In this document: positions 18,018 to 19,283 of the stretch, piece by piece
How positions within the stretch are numbered: the first letter of the stretch is position 1
Layout of the letters: the number at the start of each line of letters is the position of its first letter
DNA from: an uncultured bacterium
Lineage (GTDB): Bacteria; CAYJRR01
Assembly (NCBI GenBank): GCA_964372275.1
Contig: CAYJRR010000087.1
Span: 1-19,347, forward strand
Direction of reading: 5' to 3'
Length of the DNA stretch: 19,347 nt
Program-made: the position numbers and the translations under genes
Notes under the pieces: generated by a model
The model's input: the letters and a program-made list of their open reading frames with translations, nothing else
Database searches by the model: none
Told to the model about the DNA's origin: nothing

Positions 18018-19283
18018 GTGTCCGAGATCGAGACGAAGCGGGTCGCCGCCGGCAAGGACGACGACGAAAAGAAGAAGGACGACAAGGGCGAGAAGCCGGA
18101 CAAGGAGAAGTCGGAGAAGAAGAAGCCGTCCGGAGGCTCGATCCGGGCGCGCGAGGGATCGTCGGCCGGCGGCGCGCCGCAACCGGGGAAAGAGGACGAG
18201 GGGGAGCAACACGAGATCCCCGACCTCCTGCCGATCCTGCCGGTGCGGAACATGGTCCTCTATCCGTGGGTCATGGTCCCGATCCTGGTCGGGCGCGGGA
18301 AGTCGGTCCGGCTGATCGACGACGTGCTCCTCAAGAGCAAGGTGATCGGGCTCGTCGCGCAGAAGGACGCGGAGAAGGAGGACCCCACCCCGGACGACCT
18401 GTTCCGCATCGGGACGGCCGGCGTCATTCTCAAGATGCTCAAGTTCCCCGACGGCTCCCTGCGGGTACTGATCCAGGGGATGCGCCGCTTCAAGGTCGCC
18501 GAGTTCACCGAGACCGAGCCCTACTTCAAGGCCAAGATCCAGCTTCTGGAGGACAAGCTCGATGACGACAAGGAACTGCACGCGCTCGTCCAGAACCTGC
18601 GGACGCAGTTCCAGAAGCTGATCGAGCACTCCCCGATCATCCCGGCGGAGGTGCAGATCACGGCGATGAACATCACGGCCCCCGGGAAGCTGGCCGACTT
18701 CGTCGCCACCCACCTGAACATCGAGCTGGCCGAGATGCAGGGACTGCTCGAGACCCTATCGGTGAAGGAACGCCTGCAGAAGGTGACGGTGCTCCTCACC
18801 CGCGAGCTTGAGGTGCTGGAGCTCGGGTCCAAGATCCAGAGCCAGATCAAGGACGAGATGGAGTCGAAGCAGCGCGACTACTACCTCCGCGAGCAGCTCA
18901 AGGCGATCAAGAAGGAGCTGGGGGAGTCGGACGGCGACAACCAGGAGGTCGAGGAGTTCCGGGAGAAGATCAAGAAGGCGAAGATGCCGGCCGAGGTCGA
19001 GAAGGAGGCGATGGCCGAGCTCGACCGGATGAGCCGCATGCACCCGGACGCGGCGGAGTACACCGTCTCGCGGACGTACCTCGACTGGTTGACGGCGCTC
19101 CCCTGGCAGAAGGGGACCGACGACCACCTCGACATCAAGAAGGCCCGCGAGGTGCTCGACGCCGATCATTACGACCTGGAGAAGGTGAAGGACCGGATCC
19201 TGGAGTACCTGGCGGTGCGCAAGCTCAAGGCCGACATGAAAGGGCCGATCCTGTGCTTCGTCGGTCCTCCCGGCGTCGGCTAG
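18018..19283 (+). CDS. lon: ATP-dependent protease Lon, N-terminal substrate-binding domain. The ORF is terminated by an in-frame TAG at the Walker-A lysine position
   Basis: GTG start with GGGGGAG upstream. [37 protein letters not shown]... through ...[39 protein letters not shown] aligns with E. coli Lon residues about 8-361. The next codon should be AAG (K of GPPGVGKTS) but is TAG. Confidence 0.85.
   Translation: [421 protein letters not shown]

What the first reader, a model, noticed from the sequence alone, without database searches (positions are those of the whole stretch)
19281..19283. In-frame TAG replaces the Walker-A lysine codon of Lon
The lon reading frame is intact and highly conserved on both sides (...[32 protein letters not shown]). 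The stop sits exactly where the invariant P-loop lysine codon AAG should be, a single A-to-T difference. TAG is a genuine stop elsewhere in the window: flagellin ends ...LRLLQ-TAG and the encapsulin stop is TAG. Stop-codon reassignment is therefore unlikely. The remaining options are a sequencing or assembly error, a very recent nonsense mutation that leaves only the Lon N-domain (lon-minus strains are viable and are selected in some conditions), or a suppressor-dependent, heterogeneous population.
Basis: seen in the sequence. Interest (0 to 1): 0.55.

Follow-up and report, generated by a model that had tools for sequence, protein, structure and literature searches.

The report
Stop codon at a contig's edge
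The stop codon sitting where the Lon protease needs its essential ATP-binding lysine is really in the sequence, but it lies 64 bases from the end of a metagenome contig, so it is most likely an assembly or sequencing artefact rather than biology.

Summary
TAG at 19281-19283 is in frame with lon (18018 onward) and replaces the Walker-A lysine codon: [12 protein letters not shown]. That position is K in 237 of 237 homologues and AAG in three related contigs.

The window is a complete 19,347-nt NCBI contig, so the TAG lies 64 nt from the contig end. It also sits inside a 53-nt stretch (19258-19310) that is identical, base for base, in many unrelated bacteria. De Bruijn assemblers break contigs at such shared stretches, and the ends they leave can rest on very few reads.

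A second anomaly lies 40 nt further on. A Leu codon (CTG, 19320-19322) replaces an Arg that is present in 227 of 237 homologues and in all close relatives. Upstream, the window never departs from a conserved Lon column (0 of 68), and dN/dS against relatives is 0.08.

TAG is an ordinary stop for 5 of 16 other genes here. There is no suppressor tRNA in the window and no unusual RNA structure after the TAG.

Most likely this is a contig-end artefact (about 0.7). A real, very recent lon nonsense allele remains possible (about 0.2). Recoding is very unlikely. Only read pile-ups can settle it.

The parts
18018..19347 (+). 5' part of lonA. It holds a Lys/Glu/Asp-rich N-terminal extension, the LON substrate-binding domain, a coiled-coil linker and the first 30 residues of the AAA+ domain. 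The contig end cuts it off.
   Evidence: ORF list and translation. Pfam PF02190 at residues 71-262 and PF00004 from residue 412. It is about 92% identical in protein to the intact 879-aa Lon of L139 and L140, with the same lgt/lon neighbourhood.
19281..19283 (+). In-frame TAG at the Walker-A (P-loop) lysine codon. The expected codon is AAG.
   Evidence: K in 237 of 237 homologues. AAG in L139, L140 and L141 and in all 56 metagenome contigs that share the surrounding 39-mer.
19258..19310 (+). A 53-nt stretch that is identical base for base (apart from the T at 19281) to lon genes of many unrelated high-GC bacteria. In an assembly graph it behaves as a repeat shared between genomes.
   Evidence: The 39-mer 19263-19301 was found in 56 JGI metagenome contigs whose flanks differ. 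The exact identity extends to 53 nt in 13 of them. Four of the 56 contigs end within 150 nt of it.
19320..19322 (+). CTG (Leu) where Lon proteins have a near-invariant Arg (GRKF). This is a second anomaly, 27 nt from the contig end.
   Evidence: The relatives have CGC (Arg). Arg occurs in 227 of 237 homologues. In the 123-sequence alignment the column is 100% Arg apart from the window.
19347..19347 (.). The 3' end of the contig. It falls in ...ALG|G, just before the highly conserved GGxRDEAEIRGHRRTY block.
   Evidence: The 421-aa truncated product is on record from NCBI on a contig of exactly 19,347 nt, which is the window length. The relatives continue with GGIRDEAEIRGHRRTY.

Best explanation
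The TAG is most likely not part of the organism's working lon gene. It is probably an artefact of how this metagenome contig ends. The contig stops inside lon because the Walker-A region is nucleotide-identical across many co-occurring bacteria, and de Bruijn assemblers break where several paths meet. The last few dozen bases of such a contig can rest on one or a few reads that carry sequencing errors or come from a rare variant. Here those bases carry two changes to T at residues that Lon proteins otherwise never or hardly ever vary: A to T, giving TAG for the P-loop Lys, and a T giving CTG (Leu) for a conserved Arg. On this reading the real gene has AAG, continues on another contig, and encodes a normal LonA of about 860-880 aa. 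Shown: the position of the TAG, the contig end, the shared repeat, the second anomaly, intact orthologues, and purifying selection upstream. Inferred: that the terminal bases are poorly supported by reads.
For: (1) The window is the whole contig. P0241, the 421-aa truncated product, is recorded on a 19,347-nt NCBI contig, so the TAG is 64 nt from the end.
(2) The stretch 19258-19310 is identical to lon of unrelated organisms in up to 53 nt. All 56 contigs that share the 39-mer read AAG, and 4 of them also end within 150 nt of it.
[quoted passage not shown] It also says non-unique options at contig ends can arise from a single erroneous read or a few strain-variant reads (PMC10914622). Assemblers retain non-unique sequence at scaffold ends (PMC7111523).
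(4) A second departure from a near-invariant residue (Arg to Leu, 19320-19322) lies 40 nt downstream. The window departs from columns that are at least 95% conserved 0 of 68 times in codons 1-421, against 3 of 13 times in the last 22 codons. One of those three is shared with close relatives.
(5) Orthologues in three related contigs are intact, syntenic and read AAG.
(6) dN/dS against L139 is 0.083 over 362 upstream codons, and the 21 codons after the TAG are in frame with 6 synonymous and 1 non-synonymous difference. The gene therefore shows no sign of decay.
Against: No reads could be inspected, so support for the T is unknown. Assemblers with a minimum k-mer count need at least two reads carrying the same base, which argues against a single random error and allows a real minor variant. 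The clustering statistic is weak once one allows for the stop being the reason this spot was examined: the Arg-to-Leu change alone gives p of roughly 0.15. That change differs from the relatives' CGC at two bases, and at dS of about 0.74 it could be a true lineage difference. The rest of this organism's lon was not found, so an intact AAG copy from the same population has not been shown.
Confidence: 0.72

Rival explanations
1. A genuine, very recent nonsense mutation (AAG to TAG) in lon, either fixed or present as a minority allele in the sampled population. It would leave a 421-aa N-domain fragment and no Lon ATPase or protease activity.
For: The base is in the deposited sequence. A single A-to-T change is enough. 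From general knowledge, lon-null strains of several bacteria are viable. Strain-variant reads are a recognised cause of contig ends (PMC10914622), so a real minority allele could be what the contig end captured.
Against: There are no other disabling changes in the 443 visible codons. Upstream dN/dS is 0.083 and the downstream 21 codons look constrained, so any such mutation would have to be extremely young. A real nonsense mutation placed at random in the visible lon has only about a 5% chance (22 of 443 codons) of falling in the last 66 nt of the contig. Orthologues in all relatives found are intact. The neighbouring Arg-to-Leu oddity is easier to explain by poor terminal sequence than by decay confined to 66 nt.
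Confidence: 0.22
2. UAG is decoded here, by a Lys-inserting amber suppressor tRNA, by pyrrolysine machinery or by programmed read-through, so that full-length Lon is still made.
For: Nothing positive. The suppressor version is not excluded only because the rest of the genome is unseen, and the reading frame continues perfectly after the TAG.
Against: TAG ends 5 of 16 other genes at positions that match family C-termini. For example, the flagellin's last residues match the end of the Flagellin_C profile. No other gene in 19 kb has an in-frame TAG. There is no tRNA in the window. The 78 nt around and after the TAG fold no better than shuffled sequence (z = +0.85). All relatives use AAG. By inference from the known role of the P-loop lysine's free amino group in binding ATP phosphates, pyrrolysine could not replace it.
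Confidence: 0.02
3. The last 60-90 nt are a chimeric join onto lon sequence from a different organism or strain through the shared 53-mer.
For: The 53-nt shared stretch gives a path between genomes. From general knowledge, chimeric ends are a known failure of metagenome assemblers.
Against: The bases after the shared stretch (19311-19347) resemble the close relatives L139, L140 and L141, encoding [12 protein letters not shown]. They do not resemble the 56 unrelated contigs, which encode KATGREFV. A chimera would not by itself create a TAG, since every candidate donor reads AAG.
Confidence: 0.04

Closest known systems
Contig-end errors and break points in de Bruijn-graph metagenome assemblies (described in Chen et al. 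2020, PMC7111523, and Chen & Banfield 2024, PMC10914622)
   Same: The anomaly lies within 67 nt of a contig end. The end falls in sequence shared between genomes. More than one odd base is confined to the terminal stretch.
   Different: Read support could not be examined here, so the match to this kind of artefact is inferred from position and context and not demonstrated.
LonA (endopeptidase La) AAA+ protease, Walker-A motif GPPGVGKT
   Same: N-terminal substrate-binding domain, linker and P-loop context are all typical. The window's protein is about 92% identical to intact 879-aa LonA proteins of related uncultured bacteria, with the same lgt/lon neighbourhood.
   Different: The P-loop lysine codon reads TAG, and the gene is cut off by the contig end 21 codons later. 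Walker B, the lid and the Ser-Lys protease domain cannot be seen.
Natural or laboratory lon-null alleles (for example the lon deficiency of E. coli B strains; from general knowledge)
   Same: If the TAG were real, it would abolish Lon ATPase and protease activity while leaving the cell viable.
   Different: Such alleles are documented in isolates backed by read or Sanger evidence. Here the only evidence is the last 67 nt of a metagenome contig.

Membership tests
LonA protease gene | N-terminal LON substrate-binding domain (PF02190) | tested here: met
   Pfam E = 4e-53, residues 71-262, full profile coverage.
LonA protease gene | AAA+ module with Walker-A motif GPPGVGKT(S/T) | tested here: not met
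   The motif context is perfect, but the Lys codon is TAG. The AAA profile is matched only at positions 1-30 before the contig ends.
LonA protease gene | Walker B, lid domain and C-terminal Ser-Lys protease domain (PF05362) | not testable with these tools
   These lie beyond the contig end. They are present in relatives P0242, P0243 and P0245. The C-terminal half from this organism was not found.
Decaying pseudogene | Several disabling changes and relaxed selection (dN/dS approaching 1) | tested here: not met
   There is one stop only, no frameshift, upstream dN/dS of 0.083, and 6 synonymous to 1 non-synonymous differences downstream. The window departs from conserved columns 0 of 68 times upstream.
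UAG recoding (pyrrolysine, amber suppression or code reassignment) | UAG avoided as a terminator, or in-frame UAG recurring in other genes | tested here: not met
   TAG terminates 5 of 16 other genes, and no other gene has an in-frame TAG.
UAG recoding (pyrrolysine, amber suppression or code reassignment) | A tRNA with a CUA anticodon, or pylTSBCD genes, in the genome | not testable with these tools
   There is no tRNA in the 19-kb window, and the rest of the genome is unavailable.
Contig-end assembly artefact | Anomaly within about one read length or k-mer length of a contig end | tested here: met
   The window equals the whole 19,347-nt contig. The T at 19281 is 67 nt from the end and the T at 19321 is 27 nt from the end.
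Contig-end assembly artefact | The contig end coincides with sequence that is not unique in the community | tested here: met
   There is a 39-53-nt exact identity with 56 unrelated metagenome lon genes, and 4 of those contigs also end within 150 nt of it.
Contig-end assembly artefact | The variant base lacks majority read support | not testable with these tools
   No read data are available. Runs ERR4904390 and ERR3478686 hold the strain.

The most novel reading that the evidence does not exclude
The TAG is real and is partly read through, for example by a Lys-inserting amber suppressor tRNA encoded elsewhere in the genome. The level of active Lon would then be set by suppression efficiency. 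This would be a natural case of an essential catalytic lysine encoded by a stop codon.
Probability: 0.01. Interest if true: 0.65.

Novelty: not a real feature. Interest (0 to 1): 0.08.

Why it matters
As biology it matters little. Even if real, it would be one more loss-of-function allele of a well-understood protease. It matters for data quality. The deposited record carries a 421-aa "Lon" product (P0241) that probably does not exist. The case also shows how highly conserved motifs such as the AAA+ P-loop both end metagenome contigs and collect unsupported bases at those ends. Scans for in-frame stops, recoding or pseudogenes should mask the last 100-150 nt of short-read contigs.

Tried and rejected
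(1) Looking for the same contig or strain elsewhere:
- The 60-nt pattern with N at the variable base gave 0 hits in GTDB representative genomes.
- The 39-nt pattern found only unrelated lon genes, all reading AAG.
- A back-translated Lon search of GTDB genomes found nothing above 61% identity.

(2) Two word-index protein searches, with 443-aa and 134-aa queries, returned nothing closer than 61% and 79%. Yet an exact look-up showed a 90%-identity cluster with four close relatives. The searches evidently did not show that cluster.

(3) The third protein search used the C-terminal half of a relative. It aimed to find the continuation of this organism's lon and a possible overlapping contig. The best hit was only 73% identical, so nothing was found.

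(4) Exact look-ups using DNA references of GTG-start genes failed. This is probably because the first codon was translated as V. Repeating them with explicit M-start sequences succeeded in the cluster look-up. Even so, the positional index still has no entry for the truncated product.

(5) A literature search for the two run accessions returned nothing.

(6) Folding the RNA around and after the UAG to look for a recoding element gave no signal.

(7) Chimeric-end idea: largely rejected, because the bases after the shared stretch match the close relatives and not the unrelated donors.

(8) Enrichment of contig ends near the motif in other assemblies: 4 of 56 lie within 150 nt. This is suggestive but too few for a firm test.

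Full report
**Observation.** TAG at 19281-19283 is in frame with the ORF that begins at GTG 18018. A GGGGGAG Shine-Dalgarno-like motif lies a few bases upstream of that start. The translation reads ...[35 protein letters not shown].

Pfam finds the LON substrate-binding domain at residues 71-262 (E = 4e-53). It finds the first 30 positions of the AAA profile from residue 412. Alignment with Lon homologues puts the stop on the Walker-A lysine. That position is K in 237 of 237 retrieved homologues.

This lon uses AAG for 49 of its 51 Lys codons, so TAG is one A-to-T change from the expected codon.

**Is TAG a normal stop here?** Yes. Among 16 other confidently identified genes, the stops are TGA 10 times, TAG 5 times and TAA once. 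The TAG-terminated genes are the encapsulin, the flagellin, a DsbA-like protein, a hypothetical protein and the SRAP peptidase.

The flagellin's last residues match the end of the Flagellin_C profile, so its TAG is a true terminator. No other gene has an in-frame TAG. There is no tRNA in the window. The RNA around and after the UAG folds no better than shuffled sequence (z = +0.85). Recoding is not supported.

An exact look-up shows that the 421-aa truncated product (P0241) is on record from NCBI on a contig of 19,347 nt. That is exactly the window length, so the window is a complete contig and the TAG lies 64 nt from its 3' end. The contig stops at ...ALG|G, just before the very conserved GGxRDEAEIRGHRRTY block seen in relatives.

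**Why the contig ends here.** I searched JGI metagenomes for the 39-mer around the codon (19263-19301), with N at the variable base. This returned 56 contigs. All 56 read AAG, and their flanks show they are lon genes of other organisms, encoding ...KATGREFV.

With the T corrected to A, the exact identity to the window extends to 53 nt (19258-19310) in 13 of the 56. Four of the 56 contigs themselves end within 150 nt of this stretch. So this piece of lon acts as a repeat shared between genomes.

De Bruijn assemblers break at positions with several paths. The competing options at such ends can come from a single erroneous read or from a few strain-variant reads (PMC10914622). Assemblers also retain non-unique sequence at scaffold ends (PMC7111523).

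**Close relatives.** The 90%-identity cluster of P0241 holds four other proteins:

| Protein | Length | Source |
|---|---|---|
| P0242 | 879 aa | ENA |
| P0245 | 879 aa | ENA |
| P0243 | 858 aa | JGI |
| P0244 | 547-aa fragment | NCBI |

All four read [29 protein letters not shown].

DNA was recovered for three of them: L139, L140 and L141. Their lon is 81-84% identical in nucleotides to the window. In L139 and L140, and in the gene table of the P0243 contig, lon sits next to a divergently transcribed lgt, as in the window. L140 also has an SRAP gene further upstream, beyond one extra gene. All three DNA loci have AAG at the Walker-A codon.

**Selection.** Against L139, the 362 alignable codons upstream of the TAG give dN = 0.061, dS = 0.74 and dN/dS = 0.083. 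The 21 codons after the TAG are in frame, with 6 synonymous differences and 1 non-synonymous difference. Nothing suggests an old pseudogene.

**A second anomaly in the terminal stretch.** The one non-synonymous difference downstream is CTG (Leu) at 19320-19322, where the relatives have CGC (Arg). That Arg is present in 227 of 237 homologues. In a 123-sequence alignment the column is 100% Arg apart from the window.

Across that alignment the window departs from columns that are at least 95% conserved as follows:

| Region | Departures | Conserved columns |
|---|---|---|
| Codons 1-421 | 0 | 68 |
| Last 22 codons | 3 | 13 |

The three departures are the stop, Arg to Leu, and an Ala that the close relatives share and that is therefore a lineage trait. 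Fisher p is 0.003 counting all three.

By my own hand calculation, not a tool run, p is about 0.02 without the lineage trait. Because the stop is what drew attention here, only the Arg-to-Leu change is independent evidence. On its own it is weak, at roughly p = 0.15, again by my own estimate.

Both odd bases are changes to T, and they lie 67 and 27 nt from the contig end. One short read could span both. This is inference.

**Interpretation.** The simplest account is that the last few dozen bases of this contig rest on poorly supported reads. The break itself was caused by the shared P-loop sequence. On this account the organism's lon reads AAG and continues on another contig. I give this about 0.72.

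A real and very recent nonsense allele, fixed or in a minority, cannot be excluded without reads; I give it about 0.22. A real nonsense mutation placed at random in the visible gene would fall in the last 66 nt only about 5% of the time. It would also not explain the neighbouring Arg-to-Leu change.

A chimeric end is unlikely, at about 0.04. The bases beyond the shared stretch match the close relatives and not the unrelated donors, and no candidate donor carries TAG. Recoding or suppression gets about 0.02.

**What could not be done.** No reads are available. The strain occurs at 100% nucleotide identity over 1.5-1.6 kb in Logan assemblies of ERR4904390 and ERR3478686. No lon fragment from those runs was found, but hit lists capped at 120 could have hidden short ones.

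The C-terminal half of this organism's lon was also not found. The organism has no near neighbour in GTDB representative genomes. The best Lon match there is 61%, to uncultured Deltaproteobacteria-like and Thermodesulfobacteriota MAGs.

**Verdict.** Its most likely cause is a contig-end artefact, so it is not a real biological feature, and interest is low. The decisive test is a read pile-up at 19281 and 19321, together with the overlapping neighbour contig.

Noticed in passing
window 19320-19322: CTG (Leu) replaces an Arg that is present in 227 of 237 Lon homologues and in all close relatives (GRKF becomes GLKF). It lies 27 nt from the contig end and is a second suspect base call beside the TAG.
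   Followed up: yes
window 18018-18230: This Lon starts with an extension of about 70 residues rich in Lys, Glu and Asp ([24 protein letters not shown]...), ahead of the usual N-domain. Relatives P0242 and P0243 have a similar extension, but the more distant Lon homologues aligned do not. Its function is unknown.
   Followed up: partly
window 3061-3990 (-) and 2010-3038 (-): An encapsulin shell gene (Linocin_M18, E = 6e-55) lies immediately upstream of a radical-SAM enzyme gene on the same strand. No recognisable cargo protein is in view.
   Followed up: no
window 7784-8605 (-) and 8619-9491 (-): A typical flagellin (Flagellin_N plus Flagellin_C) is followed by a second 273-aa ORF that has no Pfam hit. 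By eye that ORF has flagellin-like terminal helices, so it may be a divergent flagellin paralogue.
   Followed up: no
L140 4922-7561 (nt 1262 of lon) compared with L139: Two near-identical ENA contigs (99.8% identical) differ at 3 bases in lon. One difference turns an Ile that is invariant in the 12-sequence alignment (GPILCF) into Ser (GPSLCF), 11 codons before the Walker-A Lys in the MEGAHIT-style contig k141_1145204. This is another odd base in the same conserved stretch.
   Followed up: partly
L141 394-403: The lon of NCBI contig JALYEI010032312.1 contains a run of 10 N. This splits the gene call into a 147-aa product and a 547-aa product (P0244).
   Followed up: partly
tools: Word-index protein searches did not return the four roughly 90%-identical cluster mates that an exact look-up later revealed. 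Exact look-ups using DNA references of GTG-start genes failed, probably because the first codon was read as V. Negative results from these tools should be treated with care.
   Followed up: yes
window 12868-13518 (+) and 15739-16209 (-): Two ORFs have no Pfam hit. One is 216 aa and sits between the sigma/anti-sigma pair and the lipase-maturation-factor gene. The other is 156 aa and looks like a signal-peptide protein. They were not examined further.
   Followed up: no
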